From a virus (Duplodnaviria > Caudoviricetes): DNA of 61,073 nucleotides. Positions within the stretch are counted from its first letter, which is position 1. The number at the start of each line of letters is the position of its first letter. The translations under genes and the position numbers were made by a program. The notes under the pieces were generated by a model. It had not been told where the DNA came from. It saw nothing but the letters and a program-made list of their open reading frames with translations, and did no database searches. Shown here one piece after another: positions 37,893 through 48,056 of this stretch. The stretch lies in the IMG/VR virus record IMGVR_UViG_3300022747_000019, positions 1 to 61,073 of that record; one strand, 5' to 3'.

Positions 37893-38011
37893 TATTTAAA
37901 TTGACTGATTAGTGTAGTGGCAAACACGCAAGGGCCAACATCGTACGCGATATGGTTGGAATCGCCAGTGTAACGTAGGTTCGAATCCTGCATTAGTCAA
38001 TTTAAATATGG
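37890..38011 (+). ncRNA. tRNA-like RNA on a 20-bp extended acceptor stem, no CCA
   Basis: CCATATTTAAATTGACTGAT/ATTAGTCAATTTAAATATGG; D arm GTGT..ACAC; T arm GTAGG-TTCGAAT-CCTGC; non-canonical central arm. Confidence 0.6.
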
Positions 38012-39781: not shown

Positions 39782-39946
39782 ATGGTACAAAACTACACAG
39801 TAGTTCGTGCCCGTGATATGGCAGAACTTATAACAAAAGTTAATGCCCTCATTGCTATGGGATGGCAACCACAAGGCTCTATTGCAGTTGATCCTATTAA
39901 TCATCTGTATTTACAAGCTATGTGGACAGAAATGACGGCCCTATAG
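39782..39946 (+). CDS. DUF1737-like small protein (54 aa)
   Basis: Hand-translated MVQNYTVV...GWQPQGSI...YLQAM. Confidence 0.5.
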   Translation: MVQNYTVVRARDMAELITKVNALIAMGWQPQGSIAVDPINHLYLQAMWTEMTAL

Positions 39947-40028
39947 TTTAACGGTAAAACGGCGGATTTATATCCCGTAAGCAACAGATAATTGGTTCAT
40001 CTGGGTTCGATTCCCGGTGGGGCTACCA
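39937..40028 (+). tRNA. Atypical tRNA, apparent anticodon TAT (Ile), long variable arm
   Basis: GGCCCTA/TGGGGCT acceptor, TTTATAT loop, TTCGATT, ACCA; 92 nt. Confidence 0.6.
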
Positions 40029-40501: not shown

Positions 40502-40578
40502 GCAGGGAATAGTGTCAGTGGCAAGCACACTTGTCTGTGAAACAAGAAGTCAGGGATCGAAACCCGTTCTCCTGCCCA
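40502..40578 (+). tRNA. tRNA-His(GTG)
   Basis: CTTGT-CTGTGAA-ACAAG; CCCA end. Confidence 0.82.
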
Positions 40579-41539: not shown

Positions 41540-41614
41540 GCTCCCGTCGTCTACTGGCTAGGACGCTGCCCTTTCAAGGCGGAAAAGACGGATCGAAACC
41601 GTTCGGGAGTACCA
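41540..41614 (+). tRNA. tRNA-Glu(TTC)
   Basis: CTGCC-CTTTCAA-GGCGG; CCA. Confidence 0.85.
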
Positions 41615-42618: not shown

Positions 42619-42873
42619 TATACTTAAATTAAACACTCTGACCGTAGCGACAGAAGTCAGTTACTTCATAACTTAAAGTACTATGATGTAACGACTATAC
42701 CGCCGAATTGGTCGCGGCTGTGAAACCTAAGGGCTTGTTCCCGTTCACATTAATCTAGGTAGTGAGCAATACACTTAAAAATAAGAAGTGGTTTAGGTAA
42801 AGCAACCACTTTAATCAAAAACTCCAGAACTGTTTTCGAACATTCTCGGTTTAGTGTGTTTAATTTAGGTATA
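42619..42873 (+). ncRNA. About 250-nt stem-closed structured RNA with GTTACTTC motif
   Basis: TATACTTAAATTAAACAC/GTGTTTAATTTAGGTATA closing helix; promoter just upstream; no ORF. Confidence 0.55.
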
Positions 42874-42996
42874 GTGAAAGAAACAGCTACTTCTGACTGT
42901 TAATCAGGGAGTCTAGGTTCGAATCCTAGCAGGTCGTCTTAGATCTGTAATGTAATGGTAGCATCCTTCCGTTCTGTTTCGCCTTGTTCTTATCTA
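42866..42996 (+). ncRNA. YrlA-like Y RNA (permuted tRNA mimic) with intact Asn(GTT) anticodon arm
   Basis: GAAACAG/CTGTTTC stem, CTACTTC, TCTGA-CTGTTAA-TCAGG, T arm, closed acceptor CAGGTC/GATCTG, D arm; directly upstream of Ro60. Confidence 0.8.
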
Positions 42997-43011
42997 TTTA
43001 AAAGGAATCAA

Positions 43012-44322
43012 ATGTCTTCGATCAATCGTGTTGTTCGTACACCTGCATTTAACTCTGTGGGTACAAAAGTGCCTGCTATTAATGCAGAGCGTCAACTAAA
43101 GCGTGTTACTCTTGCAGCTATGCTGTGGGATAATCAGTTTTATCTTGATGGTAAAACTCACGCAGAACTGGTCAAAGACCTTGTGGCTAAAGTCGCTCCT
43201 GAAAAGGTAACGGCTCTAGCTGAGGAAGCCCGTACAAAGTTCAAACTGCGTCACATTCCTCTGTTGCTTGCCCGCGAGCTTGCTCGAAACGGAAAACTGC
43301 AAGCAAACGCGTTGACTAATGTCATTCAGCGTCCAGACGAAATGTCTGAGTTCCTGTCCATTTATTGGAAGGAAGGCAAATCTGCTGTGTCGAACCAGGT
43401 TAAAAAAGGCTTAGCGGCTTGTTTTAACAAGTTCAATGAGTACCAGCTTGCCAAATGGAATAAGAACTCTGCCGCAATCAAATTGCGTGATGTGATGTTC
43501 ATTTCCCACCCTAAACCGCAAAATGCCGAGCAAGAGGCGCTTTTCAAGCGCATCGCGGCTGATACACTTGAGACACCAGACACATGGGAAACTCAACTAT
43601 CTAGCGGCGCAGATAAGTGTGGTACGTTTACCCGTCTTATGACGGAAAAGAAACTAGGAGCCCTAGCTTTCTTGCGTAATCTGCGTAATATGCGCGACAG
43701 TGGTGTTTCGGATTCCCTTATCCGTAGTTATGCATCTACTGTTGACGTTAGCAAAGTCCTGCCATTCCGCTATATTGCGGCGGCTCGTATTGTACCACAA
43801 TACGAAGACATGCTAGAAACAATGATGTTCCGTAGCCTAGCTACACATCAAAAAATCCCTGGAAAGACAGTCTTGTTAATCGACGTTAGCGGCAGCATGT
43901 TCGGTACCAAGATTTCCGCAAAATCAGATCTAGATCGCTTCGATGCGGCAGCAGCACTCGCTATGTTGTGCCGTGAAGTATGCGAAGAAGTCGAGATTTA
44001 TAGCTTTAGTAACAATGCTGTGCGTGTCGCACCTCGTCGCGGATTTGCTCTCCGTGAAGCTATTACAAACTCTCAAGGTCACGGTGGAACTGCCTTAGGC
44101 AATTCCATGAAGACTGTGAACGGCAATGGTTCGTATGATCGTTGTATCGTGTTCACTGACGAGCAAAGCTATGATCGCCCAGGTGCTCCTCGTGGCCGTG
44201 GTTACGTTGTTAACGTAGCAAGCTACCAAAACGGAGTTAACCATAGTGCATGGACAGAGATTAACGGCTTTAGCGAGTCTGTTATCGACTATATCCAAGC
44301 CTTGGAGCAGGAAGCTGCTTAA
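43012..44322 (+). CDS. rsr: Ro60/TROVE-domain RNA-binding protein with vWA domain
   Basis: FNEYQLAKW, KLRDVMFISHPKP, TWETQLS, AFLRNLRNM, LPFRYIAA, MIDAS DVSGSM and FTDEQ; AAGGA RBS before ATG 43012. Confidence 0.92.
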   Translation: MSSINRVVRTPAFNSVGTKVPAINAERQLKRVTLAAMLWDNQFYLDGKTHAELVKDLVAKVAPEKVTALAEEARTKFKLRHIPLLLARELARNGKLQANALTNVIQRPDEMSEFLSIYWKEGKSAVSNQVKKGLAACFNKFNEYQLAKWNKNSAAIKLRDVMFISHPKPQNAEQEALFKRIAADTLETPDTWETQLSSGADKCGTFTRLMTEKKLGALAFLRNLRNMRDSGVSDSLIRSYASTVDVSKVLPFRYIAAARIVPQYEDMLETMMFRSLATHQKIPGKTVLLIDVSGSMFGTKISAKSDLDRFDAAAALAMLCREVCEEVEIYSFSNNAVRVAPRRGFALREAITNSQGHGGTALGNSMKTVNGNGSYDRCIVFTDEQSYDRPGAPRGRGYVVNVASYQNGVNHSAWTEINGFSESVIDYIQALEQEAA

Positions 44323-44385
44323 TTAACTTACCCACGACCCAAGCCTGTAGCCAGTCAGGTGTTAGAAAGGTGGGGCTCTAAGCTA

Positions 44386-44481
44386 AGGGCTTAGATTAGC
44401 ATATGGTGCACAAGTACAGTTACTTCTATTTGGTTTGAAAACACACTGTACTTACTTATTCCTATGTTAATCTAAGCCCTT
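44386..44481 (+). ncRNA. Minimal Y-like hairpin RNA with ACAGTTACTTC motif
   Basis: AGGGCTTAGATTAGCATA/TATGTTAATCTAAGCCCT and AAGTACAG/CTGTACTT helices; just downstream of Ro60. Confidence 0.6.
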
Positions 44482-44588
44482 TGTGTTTTTAACAGATACA
44501 TCCTCCAAAAACCGCCCAACTCGCGGTTCTACCGGCTGTGACGGGAGTCCAGCCTCTGTTATTGTTGTTCAAGGGTTTAACCTTTATT

Positions 44589-44722
44589 GCTTTGGCGATA
44601 GTTGCAGTTTCATCAAAAGTTCGATTCTTTTATTTCCAGCCAAAAATTTTTGGAAATTCGCCAAGTGGTATGGCACCGGAACTGATAATCCGGCAAAAAC
44701 TCTGTAACGCCCTATTCCAAGC
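44589..44722 (+). ncRNA. Circularly permuted tRNA(Gln)-like RNA
   Basis: T arm + ATTTCCA-GCCA precedes TGGAAAT + D arm + CCGGA/TCCGG arm; ends pair (GTTGCAG/CTGTAAC). Confidence 0.7.
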
Positions 44723-44726
44723 ATTT

Positions 44727-44800
44727 ATCTCGCTAGTGTAATGGCAGCATACCGGTCTCCAAAACCGTTGGTCGGGGTTCGAGTCCCTGGCGGGATGCCA
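44727..44800 (+). tRNA. tRNA-Trp(CCA)
   Basis: CGGT-CTCCAAA-ACCG; GCCA. Confidence 0.88.
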
Positions 44801-44852
44801 AATTTTAGATTTGTCGCGGATTGCTTTTTGCGATATAATTATTCTTTAAATC

Positions 44853-44936
44853 GGAGTGAACGGAACAACGGTGTTCTAGCGGGCTGTAACCCCGTGGCCT
44901 TATGGTAGGTAGGTTCGATCCCTACTCACTCCACCA
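44853..44936 (+). tRNA. tRNA-Tyr(GTA) copy 1
   Basis: GCGGG-CTGTAAC-CCCGT; CCA. Confidence 0.85.
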
Positions 44937-44942
44937 AATTAT

Positions 44943-45026
44943 GGGACTGTGGTGTAATAGGTAGCCACAGGAGACTTAAAATCTCCCGCCTTGTGCGTGC
45001 CGGTTCGAGTCCCTGGCGGGATGCCA
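44943..45026 (+). pseudogene. Chimeric tRNA-Leu(TAA)/Trp pseudogene
   Basis: 5' part is Leu(TAA); sequence after the T loop is identical to the tRNA-Trp 3' end, so the acceptor cannot pair. Confidence 0.75.
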
Positions 45027-45078
45027 AATTTTAGATTTGTCGCGGATTGCTTTTTGCGATATAATTATTCTTTAAATC

Positions 45079-45162
45079 GGAGTGAATGGAACAATGGCGT
45101 TCTAGCCGGCTGTAACCCGGTGGCCTTATGGCAGGTAGGTTCGATCCCTACTCACTCCACCA
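45079..45162 (+). tRNA. tRNA-Tyr(GTA) copy 2
   Basis: GCCGG-CTGTAAC-CCGGT; CCA. Confidence 0.85.
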
Positions 45163-45265
45163 GTTTTCTTTAACGTGCTGACTTTCTGAGTTAGATTCAA
45201 TGGAGGGCTGATTTGAATCTCAGCCAAGACTTAGTGTAAGCGGCACGTTAAAGAAAATTACAAAT

Positions 45266-45902: not shown

Positions 45903-46022
45903 TTTAGTCTTAGCGACTTGATTAGTTACTTCTTTTTACTTTTAATAAAAACGACTGGGGTTCGATTCCCTGGAGGCCGCTGGTGCATGGGCCAATTTCT
46001 AATCTATCTATTCTAGACTAAT
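45903..46022 (+). ncRNA. YrlA-like RNA displaying a Lys(TTT) anticodon arm
   Basis: TTAGTCT/AGACTAA and GATTAG/CTAATC helices, GTTACTTC, TTTTTA-CTTTTAA-TAAAAA, T arm GGG-TTCGATT-CCC. Confidence 0.7.
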
Positions 46023-47028: not shown

Positions 47029-47111
47029 TATTTTAGCACTTTAGAAGCCCACGCCTGTGCACAGGTACGTGAATGTGGTTACGACGCTTGTCCGTTAGAG
47101 TGCTAAAATAT

Positions 47112-47430
47112 GGTTGTATGAAGCAGACAGAAAAGTGTTCTGGACGCGGGTTCGACTCCCGCCATCTCCACCGAAGCATACTGAGCCGACTGTAGAATTC
47201 AGTAAGCATTTAGGGAAGATCCACGTTTAGTGTGTTTCGTTGGGGATGTCATGGTTTCGACAGGGCAAAGAGTAAACAAGTAGACAACTCGGCAATGTAG
47301 AAGCCGTAGGGTTGGGTAACCGGCCGCAGAAGCAAAACAAAAATAAACGCAAACGAATCAGTTTACGCATTAGCAGCTTAATTGCCGCTTAGGGTTTTTG
47401 TCGGTTCCTCGTAACAGAATACCGACTCTA
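47112..47430 (+). ncRNA. ssrA: Circularly permuted (two-piece) tmRNA, tag ANESVYALAA*
   Basis: 3' acceptor piece GGACGCGGGTTCGACTCCCGCCATCTCCACC (to 47172) precedes the 5' piece GGGGATG...TTCGAC (47242); G3:U70; tag at 47349-47381. Outer ends approximate. Confidence 0.9.
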
Positions 47431-47441
47431 TTAAGGAATTT

Positions 47442-48056
47442 ATGAAAAAACGAAGTATACTTGACCCTAAGCTGTTCCAAGAGGACGGTAGTAGCAATAG
47501 CTTTACTAAAACAGTAGCAAGAACTCATGAATTCTACCTAAGCGGCCCTATTGAGGACGCAGAGAATTATATTGATTGGTTTGATACCATTCGTAATGCT
47601 AGTAGTAATGATGCTATCCGTATTTACATTAACTCACCTGGTGGCGATCTTTATACTACGCTACAGTTTTTACGAGTTATGAGTGATACAGAAGCCCATG
47701 TAACTACTAGTGTTGAAGGCGCTTGTATGAGTGCCGCAACTATGATCTTCTTGCATGGACACGCACAAGAAGTAACTCCACACAGCCTGTTTATGTTCCA
47801 CGATTATTCTAGTGGCACTTTTGGCAAAGGTGGAGAACAGTATGACCAGATTCAGTTTGAACGTCAATGGTCTAAGAAATTTATGTCGGAAGTTTATAAA
47901 GACTTCTTGACCGACTCCGAAATCGAATCCATGATGCACAATAAAGACATTTGGATGGATTCTGACGAAGTAGTCAAGCGTTTAACTACGCTCGCTGAAA
48001 AGCGAAACAAAGATTTGGGTGATGATGCAGCTGGGAAGGCCGGCGACCAGCCTTGA
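47442..48056 (+). CDS. ClpP-like protease
   Basis: IYINSPGG, ACMSAATMI, FMFHD, KDIWM. Confidence 0.85.
   Translation: MKKRSILDPKLFQEDGSSNSFTKTVARTHEFYLSGPIEDAENYIDWFDTIRNASSNDAIRIYINSPGGDLYTTLQFLRVMSDTEAHVTTSVEGACMSAATMIFLHGHAQEVTPHSLFMFHDYSSGTFGKGGEQYDQIQFERQWSKKFMSEVYKDFLTDSEIESMMHNKDIWMDSDEVVKRLTTLAEKRNKDLGDDAAGKAGDQP

What the first reader, a model, noticed from the sequence alone, without database searches (positions are those of the whole stretch)
44589..44722. Circularly permuted tRNA gene opened in the variable arm, with encoded CCA
The 3' half (T arm AAAAG-TTCGATT-CTTTT, ATTTCCA-G-CCA ending 44642) lies upstream of the 5' half (TGGAAAT at 44651, Gln-type D arm GCCA-AGTGGTA-TGGC, CCGGA-ACTGATAA-TCCGG with an 8-nt loop), and the outer ends pair. 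Removing the short AAAATTTT linker would give a two-piece, potentially chargeable tRNA, the same logic as the permuted tmRNA nearby. Permuted tRNA genes are known from algae and archaea; I know of none described in phages.
Basis: partly seen in the sequence, partly recalled or inferred. Interest (0 to 1): 0.8.

Follow-up and report, generated by a model that had tools for sequence, protein, structure and literature searches.

The report
Phage Y RNA that mimics tRNA
The "permuted tRNA" is real as a structure, but it is most likely a Y RNA, a tRNA-shaped partner RNA of the Ro60 protein encoded just upstream, which is a known class of RNA and not a new kind of tRNA gene.

Summary
At 44587-44723 (+) a T arm, a 7-bp acceptor stem closed by GCCA+AAAATTTT, a D arm, an anticodon-like hairpin with an 8-nt loop, and a closing outer helix lie exactly as described. 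The ORF ending 265 nt upstream on the same strand is a Ro60/TROVE protein. The outer helix carries GGCGATAG, one letter off the published Ro60-site motif GNCGAAN0-1G; a homologue has it exactly. Eleven other viral contigs carry the same five-helix RNA, ten of them with a Ro60 gene within 1.6 kb on the same strand. The helices covary strongly: 93.8% of cells paired against 71.5% in shuffles, and 36 of 39 pairs changed on both sides. The features a decoding tRNA needs are not conserved. GCCA is present in 3 of 12, and the "anticodon" loop varies in sequence and length. This matches YrlA-type Y RNAs, already described as circularly-permuted-tRNA-like and already reported in phages. It differs in having a closed anticodon arm 3' of the D arm. 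RNase P cleavage into two CCA-ended pieces is plausible by analogy with M. smegmatis YrlA, but it is not shown. One metatranscriptome contig runs uncut across the linker.

The parts
43013..44322 (+). Ro60/Rsr orthologue (TROVE + Ro60 vWA domains). The mechanical ORF starts at 42955. ATG 43013, preceded by AAGGA, is the more likely start.
   Evidence: Pfam TROVE 1.2e-8, vWA_Ro60 2e-6. PF05731 is over its cut-off. PDB 9l5y/9kop, the Thermus phage phiLo Ro60, at E 1.3e-22. Relatives match only from residues 7-20 onward. A Y-like RNA match at 42864-42998 overlaps the ORF's 5' end.
44588..44607 (+). 5' strand of the outer (closing) helix. It includes GGCGATAG at 44594-44601, which resembles the Ro60-site motif GNCGAAN0-1G.
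   Evidence: The motif is taken from Chen 2014. Homologue L012 has GGCGAACG.
44608..44614 (+). Linker TTTCATC before the T arm. Its last C takes the place of tRNA position 48.
   Evidence: Positions 15:48 read G:C in 8 rows, A:U in 2 and other letters in 2.
44615..44631 (+). T arm AAAAG/TTCGATT/CTTTT
   Evidence: 4 of 5 pairs covary and 100% of cells are paired.
44632..44657 (+). Acceptor-like stem-loop: ATTTCCA (3' strand), loop G-CCA-AAAATTTT (44639-44650), TGGAAAT (5' strand).
   Evidence: 7 of 7 pairs covary. Loop contents across the 12 homologues are.
44658..44675 (+). TC (positions 8-9), D arm GCCA/AGTGGTA/TGGC, A (position 26)
   Evidence: The D arm GCCNANTGGTANGGC is shared by many T-AS-D elements in viral contigs.
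44676..44693 (+). Anticodon-like hairpin CCGGA/ACTGATAA/TCCGG
   Evidence: 5 of 5 stem pairs covary. The loop is not conserved.
44694..44723 (+). Linker CAAAAACT and the 3' strand of the outer helix (CTGTAAC, bulge GCCC, TATTCCAAGCA)
44727..44800 (+). tRNA-Trp(CCA), starting 4 nt after the outer helix. Cleavage at its 5' end by RNase P would set the 3' end of the Y RNA (inferred).
   Evidence: The same adjacency is seen in L003, L007, L012 and L178.
42864..42998 (+). Second tRNA-like Y RNA candidate, just 5' of Ro60. Order: GTGAAAG motif, CTACTTC, hairpin with loop CTGTTAA, T arm, acceptor-like hairpin, D arm.
   Evidence: Model R1 31.2 bits; sequence; fold. The same position is hit in L002, L003, L006, L009-L012, L027 and L178.
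44385..44480 (+). Y-like long hairpin RNA. It shares TGGTG...CAGTTACTTC and TTATTCC with the finding's stem.
   Evidence: Fold z-score -4.38, with 0 of 200 shuffles as good. Conserved in 11 related loci.
44478..44575 (+). Y-like RNA with two small hairpins between paired ends
   Evidence: Fold z-score -2.51. Relatives keep GCCCTTTGCGC...GGTTACTTC...TTATTCAAGGGC.
45903..46022 (+). Y-like RNA with a GCGA motif, GTTACTTC, a hairpin with loop CTTTTAA, and a T arm, between tRNA-Asn and tRNA-Gln
   Evidence: Model R1 25.3 bits; sequence; fold. The equivalent place is hit in L002, L004, L005, L008, L009, L011 and L012.

Best explanation
The element at 44587-44723 is a YrlA-type Y RNA, the non-coding RNA partner of the phage's own Ro60 protein (43013-44322). 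Its two ends pair into a bulged helix that carries a Ro60-site-like motif (GGCGATAG), and this helix would dock on Ro60. This docking is inferred from the family and was not tested here. The rest of the RNA folds as a complete tRNA look-alike with a T arm, a 7-bp acceptor-like stem closed by a loop, a D arm and an anticodon-like hairpin. The T/D elbow contacts are kept. This module would present a tRNA shape to a host tRNA-binding factor, or help to tether Ro60 to host PNPase as in known Ro60/Y RNA/PNPase particles (inferred). It is one of at least five Y-like RNAs clustered around Ro60 inside the phage's tRNA array. It is probably cut out of a polycistronic transcript, with its 3' end set by RNase P acting on the adjacent tRNA-Trp (inferred). 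In this phage the acceptor loop happens to read G-CCA followed by an A/U-rich linker. RNase P may therefore also open the loop, giving two pieces held together by the acceptor stem and the outer helix, as shown for M. smegmatis YrlA. I put that step at about 30%, and decoding on the ribosome at under 5%.
For: (1) The upstream ORF is Ro60: Pfam TROVE 1.2e-8 and vWA_Ro60 2e-6, PF05731 over its cut-off, and phage phiLo Ro60 structures at E 1.3e-22. The element starts 265 nt after its stop on the same strand. Chen 2014's criterion is within 4 kb on the same strand.
(2) GGCGATAG at 44594-44601 differs in one letter from GNCGAAN0-1G. Homologue L012 has GGCGAACG.
(3) Model R1 was built from 8 close homologues. 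It found four elements outside its training set, L014 (68.7 bits), L059 (57.0), L134 (56.9) and L107 (50.3). A Ro60 HMM hit lies within 1.6 kb on the same strand for 11 of the 12 aligned elements. L134 has none in the 5.2 kb held.
(4) Covariation on the 12 rows: 93.8% of cells paired against 71.5% in shuffles (0 of 500 shuffles reach it) and 36-44% when partners are slid. 36 of 39 pairs changed on both sides. RNAalifold on the unfitted MAFFT alignment independently gives the outer helix with an internal loop at CGATA, the T arm, the acceptor stem and the D arm.
(5) tRNA-specific needs are not conserved. The acceptor loops read GCCAAAAATTTT, GCCAAAAAT, GCCATA, GCCTAT, GCCTTT, GCATT, GCGTT (twice), GCAT, GCTTC, ATC and ATT. 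The anticodon-like loops differ in sequence and length, 7 to 9 nt by hand reading.
(6) Positions 15:48 switch between G:C (8 rows) and A:U (2 rows), as reported for YrlA.
(7) Four other RNAs in the window share the stem module (UGGYG/GCGA ... GTTACTTC ... TTATTC) with different inner modules.
(8) R1 also hits next to Ro60 in the isolated phages Usme (3 elements), Mvi-JY20 and CcrColossus. The CcrColossus element folds in the same order, outer helix, T, acceptor hairpin, D, hairpin.
(9) Two RNA libraries hold contigs over the element. One (X3, 247 nt, 44509-44755, 0 differences) bridges the linker.
(10) The literature reports phage Ro60 binding phage-encoded Y-like RNAs and host PNPase (PMC12135203, passages).
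Against: No Rfam family for Y RNAs matched the region at any threshold tried. I could not run the published YrlA covariance models, because the supplements are closed. The window's motif has U where the consensus has A, and UUUC where YrlA has YUAY. The module order differs from the YrlA description in the main text. There a less-conserved stem-loop lies 5' of the T arm and the anticodon stem is open; here a closed hairpin lies 3' of the D arm. Alignment A2 was fitted to the model's structure, which favours that structure. The 12 rows include 8 close relatives, so many counted changes are shared by descent. Binding to Ro60 is not shown. The RNA-library contigs could in principle derive from DNA in the library, and contigs cannot show RNA ends. 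The genome-contig scan added nothing: 5 of 120 loci had a hairpin acceptor stem and none had a Ro60 hit.
Confidence: 0.85

Rival explanations
1. It is a genuine circularly permuted tRNA gene. RNase P and 3' trimming remove the linker and give a two-piece tRNA with a free CCA end that is aminoacylated and decodes on the ribosome, possibly with unusual reading from the 8-nt loop.
For: 7-bp acceptor stem, G then CCA encoded, U at -1. ARAGORN calls a tRNA on the in-silico permuted sequence at its default threshold and in 0 of 300 shuffles. The phage's ordinary tRNAs also encode CCA, and a permuted two-piece tmRNA lies nearby. From recall, not from any call here: U1-A72, G2-C71, G3-C70, G73, G10 and the run CUGAU in the loop resemble E. 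coli GlnRS identity elements.
Against: GCCA is present in 3 of 12 homologues, and two have 3-nt loops (ATC, ATT). The acceptor stem sequence changes between the window and L003 although they share the same anticodon-like loop, so no single identity set is kept. Loops differ in length, and some lack U33 (AGCATAT, TGCATAA). A roughly 20-bp helix with a Ro60-site-like motif sits in the variable region and covaries. The element is linked to Ro60 in 11 of 12 cases. One RNA-library contig crosses the linker uncut.
Confidence: 0.04
2. It is debris of two tandem tRNA genes: the first lost its D and anticodon arms and the second lost its T arm. It has no function of its own.
For: Downstream TATTCCA (44713-44719) pairs partly with TGGAAAT, so the Rfam tRNA model aligns 44651-44720 as a T-arm-less tRNA at 17.2 bits. 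Upstream TGGCGAT resembles TGGAAAT. Tandem tRNA genes exist in this array, for example tRNA-Glu at 41540 and 41620. A tandem duplication is a plausible distant origin.
Against: All six helices, the outer one included, are kept by compensatory changes across contigs whose Ro60 proteins are only 23-63% identical to the window's by tblastn. Loop lengths change while stems stay paired. The same design recurs next to Ro60 in an isolated phage.
Confidence: 0.03
3. The region encodes a small protein (ORFs 44483-44707, 44538-44741 on +, or 44584-44724 on -), and the RNA structure is incidental.
For: The ORFs exist mechanically.
Against: Homologues differ by loop indels that are not multiples of three: acceptor loops of 12, 9, 6, 5, 4 and 3 nt, and an anticodon-like loop of 8 against 7 nt. 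Substitutions are pairwise compensatory.
Confidence: 0.01

Closest known systems
YrlA-type bacterial and phage Y RNAs (Chen et al. 2014, RNA 20:1715, PMC4201824; Wang et al. 2018 preprint, 10.1101/312249)
   Same: It is encoded next to Ro60 on the same strand. Its paired 5'/3' ends carry a GNCGAA-like motif. A T arm, an acceptor-like stem-loop and a D arm follow in that order. The tRNA elbow nucleotides and the 15:48 switch are present. Several Y RNAs lie at one locus, co-located with tRNA genes.
   Different: A closed anticodon-like hairpin follows the D arm, and the Ro60 stem leaves from the variable-arm position. In the main-text description the anticodon stem is open and a less-conserved stem-loop lies 5' of the T arm. 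The motif reads GGCGAUAG (U for A) and UUUC replaces YUAY. The acceptor loop encodes GCCA. Whether such variants are in the paper's supplementary tables could not be seen.
Mycobacterium smegmatis YrlA (Chen et al. 2014, main text read)
   Same: It has a 7-bp acceptor-like stem. That RNA is cut by RNase P in vivo and by M1 RNA in vitro. The 5' piece ends in CCA, and the two pieces (82 and 65 nt) stay with Rsr.
   Different: There the CA is added after cleavage; here CCA is encoded. Processing of the phage RNA is untested, and one RNA-library contig crosses the linker uncut.
Thermus phage phiLo Ro60 with Yrl1/Yrl2 (Hu et al. 2025, PMC12135203, passages read)
   Same: A phage-encoded Ro60 has phage-encoded Y-like RNAs next to the gene. 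Binding to Ro60 and assembly with host PNPase were shown in vitro.
   Different: In the passages I read, the phiLo RNAs are described as stem-bulge-stem RNAs with a CGAA motif, not as tRNA mimics. The window's Ro60 is 24.6% identical to phiLo's by tblastn.
Circularly permuted tRNA genes of red and green algae and Thermofilum (recalled, not read here)
   Same: The 3' half with the T arm lies upstream of the 5' half, and the termini pair.
   Different: Those genes give one contiguous mature tRNA through a circular intermediate made by the splicing endonuclease and a ligase, and they have normal conserved anticodons. Here no bulge-helix-bulge is seen in the outer helix, the loop is not conserved, and the context is Ro60.
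Two-piece (permuted) tmRNA, present in this window at 47081-47472
   Same: The acceptor 3' strand with its T arm is encoded before the acceptor 5' strand. Maturation gives two base-paired pieces.
   Different: There is no mRNA-like domain or tag reading frame. Neither ARAGORN nor the Rfam tmRNA models call it. It has full D and anticodon-like arms.

Membership tests
YrlA-type Y RNA | Encoded within 4 kb of a Ro60/TROVE gene, on the same strand | tested here: met
   The Ro60 ORF ends at 44322 and the element starts at 44587, both on +. The same holds for 11 of 12 aligned homologues.
YrlA-type Y RNA | 5' and 3' ends pair into a long stem | tested here: met
   44588-44607 pairs with 44702-44723. 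17 of the 18 outer-helix pairs show a change on both sides. RNAalifold recovers the helix on the unfitted alignment.
YrlA-type Y RNA | GNCGAAN0-1G motif near the 5' end (proposed Ro60 site) | tested here: inconclusive
   The window has GGCGATAG, with one letter off. L012 has GGCGAACG, an exact match. L027 and L014 keep AGCGA and AGCG. The distant members L059, L134 and L107 are unclear.
YrlA-type Y RNA | T stem-loop, acceptor-like stem-loop and D stem-loop in that 5'-to-3' order | tested here: met
   These helices have 100%, 90.2% and 97.9% of cells paired.
YrlA-type Y RNA | tRNA tertiary nucleotides, including a 15:48 pair that switches G:C to A:U | tested here: met
   T loop TTCGATT, D loop AGTGGTA, U at position 8. 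Positions 15:48 read G:C in 8 rows, A:U in 2 and other letters in 2.
YrlA-type Y RNA | Anticodon stem open and continuous with the Ro60 stem, no anticodon loop, optional stem-loop 5' of the T arm with YUAY | tested here: not met
   A closed hairpin at 44676-44693 follows the D arm. Only 7 nt (TTTCATC) precede the T arm. UUUC stands where YUAY is expected; L012, L014 and L027 have UUAC. The Ro60-linked elements L045 and L099 do have the open form.
YrlA-type Y RNA | Bound by Ro60/Rsr; modified by TruB and DusA | not testable with these tools
   This needs co-immunoprecipitation and modification mapping.
YrlA-type Y RNA | Match to the published YrlA covariance models | not testable with these tools
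   The models are in supplementary files, which are closed. No Rfam family for Y RNA matched.
Circularly permuted tRNA gene (algal/archaeal type) | 3' half upstream of 5' half, giving a cloverleaf when permuted | tested here: met
Circularly permuted tRNA gene (algal/archaeal type) | Bulge-helix-bulge at the paired termini, for the splicing endonuclease and circularisation | tested here: not met
   The outer helix has 1-nt bulges and one 4-nt bulge, not a 3-4-3 motif. That bacteria and phages lack this endonuclease is established knowledge and was not tested here.
Circularly permuted tRNA gene (algal/archaeal type) | Canonical 7-nt anticodon loop with a conserved anticodon among orthologues | tested here: not met
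   The loop is 8 nt here. Among the 12 homologues the loops differ in length and sequence.
Two-piece tmRNA | mRNA-like domain with a tag reading frame between the tRNA-like halves | tested here: not met
   Neither ARAGORN nor the Rfam tmRNA models call it. Only 8-12 nt lie between the acceptor strands.

The most novel reading that the evidence does not exclude
In this phage lineage a Y RNA has kept or regained everything needed to be treated as a real tRNA. RNase P opens the acceptor loop at 44650/44651, trimming exposes the encoded G-CCA, and the two-piece RNA is charged. Its acceptor stem and the run CUGAU in the loop resemble glutamine identity elements (recalled). The RNA stays docked on phage Ro60 through the helix in its variable region. 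That would make it a chargeable Y RNA that couples Ro60 to aminoacyl-tRNA synthetases, EF-Tu, or host defences that attack tRNA. The near-constant GC start of the acceptor loop (10 of 12) hints at selection for a tRNA-like 3' end.
Probability: 0.07. Interest if true: 0.8.

Novelty: new variant of a known kind. Interest (0 to 1): 0.35.

Why it matters
It removes a false lead: this is not the first permuted tRNA gene in a phage. It places the element in the Ro60/Y RNA system, whose function in phages is still largely open. The locus is a compact example, with a phage Ro60 gene flanked by at least five Y-like RNAs. Two of them are full tRNA look-alikes opened at different points of the cloverleaf. 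All sit inside a large tRNA array that also holds a two-piece tmRNA. The variant with a closed anticodon arm, a 7-bp acceptor stem and an encoded CCA is a natural test case for two questions. One is whether Y RNAs are handled by RNase P, the CCA-adding enzyme and synthetases. The other is what the tRNA-shaped module recruits during infection.

Tried and rejected
- BLASTN of 44480-44730 against isolated phage genomes found no match.
- An exact 23-nt pattern in viral contigs found no match.
- Rfam at permissive thresholds over 44560-44726 and 44300-44740 gave only sub-threshold chance-level hits (IS605-orfB-II, RT-17, KCNQ1OT1_1) and the 17.2-bit tRNA match.
5 of 120 loci had a hairpin acceptor stem and none had a Ro60 HMM hit in the piece held. 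It says nothing either way about bacterial relatives.
- The motif AGYTACTTC is not clearly enriched in the window as a whole: 49 matches with one mismatch allowed, against 34 expected.
- The sigma-70 and terminator scans around the locus were at chance level.
- The fold energy of the element alone is not unusual (z -1.12). The case rests on comparison with homologues, not on energy.
- Parts of 44252-44485 have no cover in the RNA-run contigs. This is not evidence of absence.
- Two reviews (PMC10870794, PMC6047535) are not held.
- Supplementary tables and models of Chen et al. 2014 could not be seen. They may already list phage elements with this module order.

Full report
**What is there.** The stated motifs are in the sequence at the stated coordinates.
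- T arm AAAAG/TTCGATT/CTTTT: 44615-44631.
- ATTTCCA, then G, then CCA, ending at 44642.
- Linker AAAATTTT: 44643-44650.
- TGGAAAT: 44651-44657, a perfect 7-bp partner of ATTTCCA.
- D arm GCCA/AGTGGTA/TGGC: 44660-44674.
- Hairpin CCGGA/ACTGATAA/TCCGG: 44676-44693.

The minimum-energy fold of 44580-44726 reproduces all four hairpins. It closes them with an outer helix, 44588-44607 with 44702-44723. The energy itself is unremarkable, with z = -1.12.

In the native order nothing calls a tRNA here.
- ARAGORN calls none.
- Rfam at gathering score calls none.
- The Rfam tRNA model reaches 17.2 bits against a 29-bit cut-off, and only by using a downstream TATTCCA as a weak acceptor strand.

After an in-silico permutation ARAGORN draws the intended cloverleaf for 4 of 6 junction choices. 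At its default threshold it does so for 3 of 3 short junctions, and for 0 of 300 shuffles. It cannot name the anticodon.

**Context.** The window is a 61-kb viral record. It has 27 ARAGORN tRNA calls and a permuted tmRNA.

The ORF that ends at 44322, 265 nt upstream on the same strand, is a Ro60 orthologue.
- Pfam TROVE scores 1.2e-8 and the Ro60 vWA domain 2e-6.
- TROVE is over its cut-off in the genome search.
- The best solved relatives are the Ro60 of Thermus phage phiLo, 9l5y and 9kop, at E 1.3e-22.

Ro60 proteins bind Y RNAs. Chen et al. 2014 (main text read) describe bacterial and phage YrlA RNAs with these features.
- They are encoded within 4 kb of Ro60 on the same strand.
- Their ends are paired and carry the 5' motif GNCGAAN0-1G.
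- A T arm, an acceptor-like stem-loop and a D arm follow in that order.
- They report such RNAs in 254 bacteria and 22 bacteriophages.

Wang et al. [quoted passage not shown]

The outer helix of the window's element carries GGCGATAG at 44594-44601, one letter off that motif.

**Relatives.** A search with the Ro60 protein gave 17 related viral loci. Pattern scans gave more.

Six loci carry close homologues of the element: L002, L003, L005, L007, L012 and the truncated L006. L178 and L027 are further ones.

A covariance model built from 8 sequences (R1) also found four elements outside its training set.

| Locus | Score (bits) |
|---|---|
| L014 | 68.7 |
| L059 | 57.0 |
| L134 | 56.9 |
| L107 | 50.3 |

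An HMM of the Ro60 proteins places a Ro60 gene within 1.6 kb on the same strand for 11 of the 12 aligned elements. L134 has none in the 5.2 kb held.

**Structure support.** On the 12-row alignment A2:
- 93.8% of cells form standard pairs. Column shuffles give 71.5% (0 of 500 reach the observed value), and slid partners give 36-44%.
- 36 of 39 pairs show a change on both sides.
- All six helices are supported, the outer one included.

Two caveats apply. A2 is fitted to the model, and 8 rows are close kin. As an independent check, RNAalifold was run on the unfitted MAFFT alignment of 8 sequences. It predicts the outer helix in two segments with an internal loop at CGATA, plus the T arm, the acceptor stem and the D arm. 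16 of its 27 pairs change on both sides. Positions 15 and 48 read G:C in 8 rows and A:U in 2. This is the same switch reported for YrlA.

**What is not conserved.** The features a decoding tRNA would need vary.

| Acceptor loop | Locus |
|---|---|
| GCCAAAAATTTT | window |
| GCCAAAAAT | L027 |
| GCCATA | L014 |
| GCCTAT | L002 |
| GCCTTT | L005 |
| GCATT | L007 |
| GCGTT | L012, L107 |
| GCAT | L059 |
| GCTTC | L134 |
| ATC | L003 |
| ATT | L178 |

- GCCA occurs in 3 of 12, GCC in 5 of 12 and a GC start in 10 of 12.
- The anticodon-like loops read ACTGATAA (window, L003), AGCATAT, TCTTAAAC, TGTTAAAC, TGTGAAAG, CTCATAA, TGCATAA, CTCTTAA, CTTTCAAAA and CTTTTAA. Their stems covary.
- The window and L003 share the same loop but have different acceptor stems, so no single synthetase identity set is kept.

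This argues against a tRNA that is charged and decodes. It fits a structural tRNA mimic.

**A cluster of Y-like RNAs.** The intergenic DNA around Ro60 is conserved across the related loci. It holds further RNAs with the same stem module, UGGYG or GCGA, then GTTACTTC, then TTATTC on the return strand.
- 42864-42998, just 5' of Ro60, is a second full tRNA look-alike. Its anticodon-like hairpin (loop CTGTTAA) lies before the T arm.
- 44385-44480 is a long hairpin (z -4.38).
- 44478-44575 has paired ends around two small hairpins (z -2.51).
- 45903-46022 has a T arm.

Several Y RNAs per locus, one of them tRNA-like and co-transcribed with tRNAs, is what Chen et al. describe.

**Isolated phages.** Ro60 homologues occur in 95 phage records, for example Ralstonia phage RsoM2USA at 57% identity. 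Model R1 finds elements next to Ro60 in three of them.
- Xylella phage Usme has three upstream.
- Microcystis phage Mvi-JY20 has one.
- Caulobacter phage CcrColossus has one.

None of these is annotated as an RNA. The CcrColossus element folds in the same order as the window's: outer helix, T arm, acceptor hairpin, D arm, hairpin. The closed hairpin 3' of the D arm is therefore not unique to this lineage. Other Ro60-linked elements (L045, L099) have the open anticodon stem of the textbook YrlA.

**Expression.** Ten of the 24 listed runs are RNA libraries. Contigs of three RNA runs and one DNA run were laid.
- DNA run X2 covers 44200-44805 in one contig with no differences.
- RNA run X3 has a 247-nt contig, 44509-44755, at depth 29.7 with no differences. 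It bridges the linker with 142 letters on the left and 105 on the right.
- RNA run X4 has a contig 44485-44677. Only 27 letters lie to the right of the cut, so it is not counted as bridging.
- The Ro60 coding region is far deeper in the RNA runs (5368.7, 364.4 and 49.4), and those contigs stop at 44244, 44299 and 44315. The DNA run is flat at 39.7.

The uneven depth suggests real RNA. The bridging contig shows that uncut molecules or precursors exist. Contigs cannot show RNA ends, so processing at the linker remains open.

**Mechanism.**
- Shown here: the fold, its conservation, and its linkage to Ro60.
- Inferred from the family: the bulged outer helix docks on Ro60. The tRNA-shaped module is recognised by tRNA enzymes and tethers an effector such as host PNPase. 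A phage precedent exists in vitro.
- Inferred from anatomy: RNase P acting on tRNA-Trp, which starts 4 nt after the helix, sets the 3' end.
- Possible: because the stem is 7 bp, the -1 base is U and G-CCA is encoded, RNase P may open the loop as it does in M. smegmatis YrlA, where the 82-nt and 65-nt pieces stay on Rsr and CA is added. I put this at about 30%.

**Verdict.** This is a Y RNA of the YrlA kind in a phage. It is a known class with a modest variation in architecture, and it is not a new type of tRNA gene.

Noticed in passing
window 42864-42998 (+): A second tRNA-like Y RNA candidate lies immediately 5' of Ro60. It has a GTGAAAG motif, CTACTTC, a hairpin with the anticodon-like loop CTGTTAA before the T arm, an acceptor-like hairpin and a D arm. 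It overlaps the first 44 nt of the mechanical ORF, so Ro60 more likely starts at ATG 43013, after AAGGA.
   Followed up: partly
window ~42640-42760 (+): GTAGCGACAGAAGTCAGTTACTTC opens another possible Y-like RNA upstream of the one above. The fold is not convincing (z -0.59).
   Followed up: partly
window 44385-44480 and 44478-44575 (+): Two further Y-like RNAs lie between Ro60 and the finding: a long hairpin (z -4.38) and an RNA with paired ends around two small hairpins (z -2.51). Both are conserved in related contigs.
   Followed up: partly
window 45903-46022 (+): A Y-like RNA lies between tRNA-Asn and tRNA-Gln. It has a GCGA motif, GTTACTTC, a hairpin with loop CTTTTAA and a T arm, but no D arm. 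It is conserved at the same place in at least 7 related loci.
   Followed up: partly
window 44330-44368 (+): A conserved hairpin (CCCAC...GTAGCCAGTCAGG...GTGGG) lies directly after the Ro60 stop codon. Ro60-covering contigs of three RNA runs stop at 44244, 44299 and 44315, just before it, while the DNA run continues.
   Followed up: no
window ~44776-45227 (+): There is a tandem duplication of about 226 nt. It carries the 3' end of tRNA-Trp, a promoter-like TTGTCG-17-TATAAT and tRNA-Tyr. The evidence is two identical tRNA-Tyr calls, duplicated promoter-like and terminator-like hits, and a back-joint in contigs.
   Followed up: no
window 37903-37999 and 40503-40575 (+): Rfam tRNA matches (41.8 and 30.2 bits) that ARAGORN did not call. 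The first is 97 nt long and may carry an insertion.
   Followed up: no
window 39937-40028 (+): tRNA-Ile with anticodon TAT and a length of 92 nt, unusually long for this class.
   Followed up: no
window 47055-47472 (+): A two-piece (permuted) tmRNA with tag ANESVYALAA. It matches both the permuted-tmRNA and the betaproteobacterial tmRNA models.
   Followed up: no
L002, L004, L005, L008, L010, L011, between the Y RNAs and tRNA-Trp: A small ORF lies in this gap, with a Shine-Dalgarno-like AAGGAAA upstream and a conserved stretch GGCAAAGGCTCAAAGCCTAGACCCTTAAG at its start. It is absent from the window, L003, L007 and L012. In L004, L008, L010 and L011 it stands where the tRNA-like Y RNA would be.
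   Followed up: no
L326 (Xylella phage Usme) 3378-3993; L327 (Microcystis phage Mvi-JY20) 5489-5625; L328 (Caulobacter phage CcrColossus) 3028-3138: Unannotated YrlA-like RNAs lie next to the Ro60 genes of isolated, published phages. In Usme three stand in a row upstream of the gene.
   Followed up: partly
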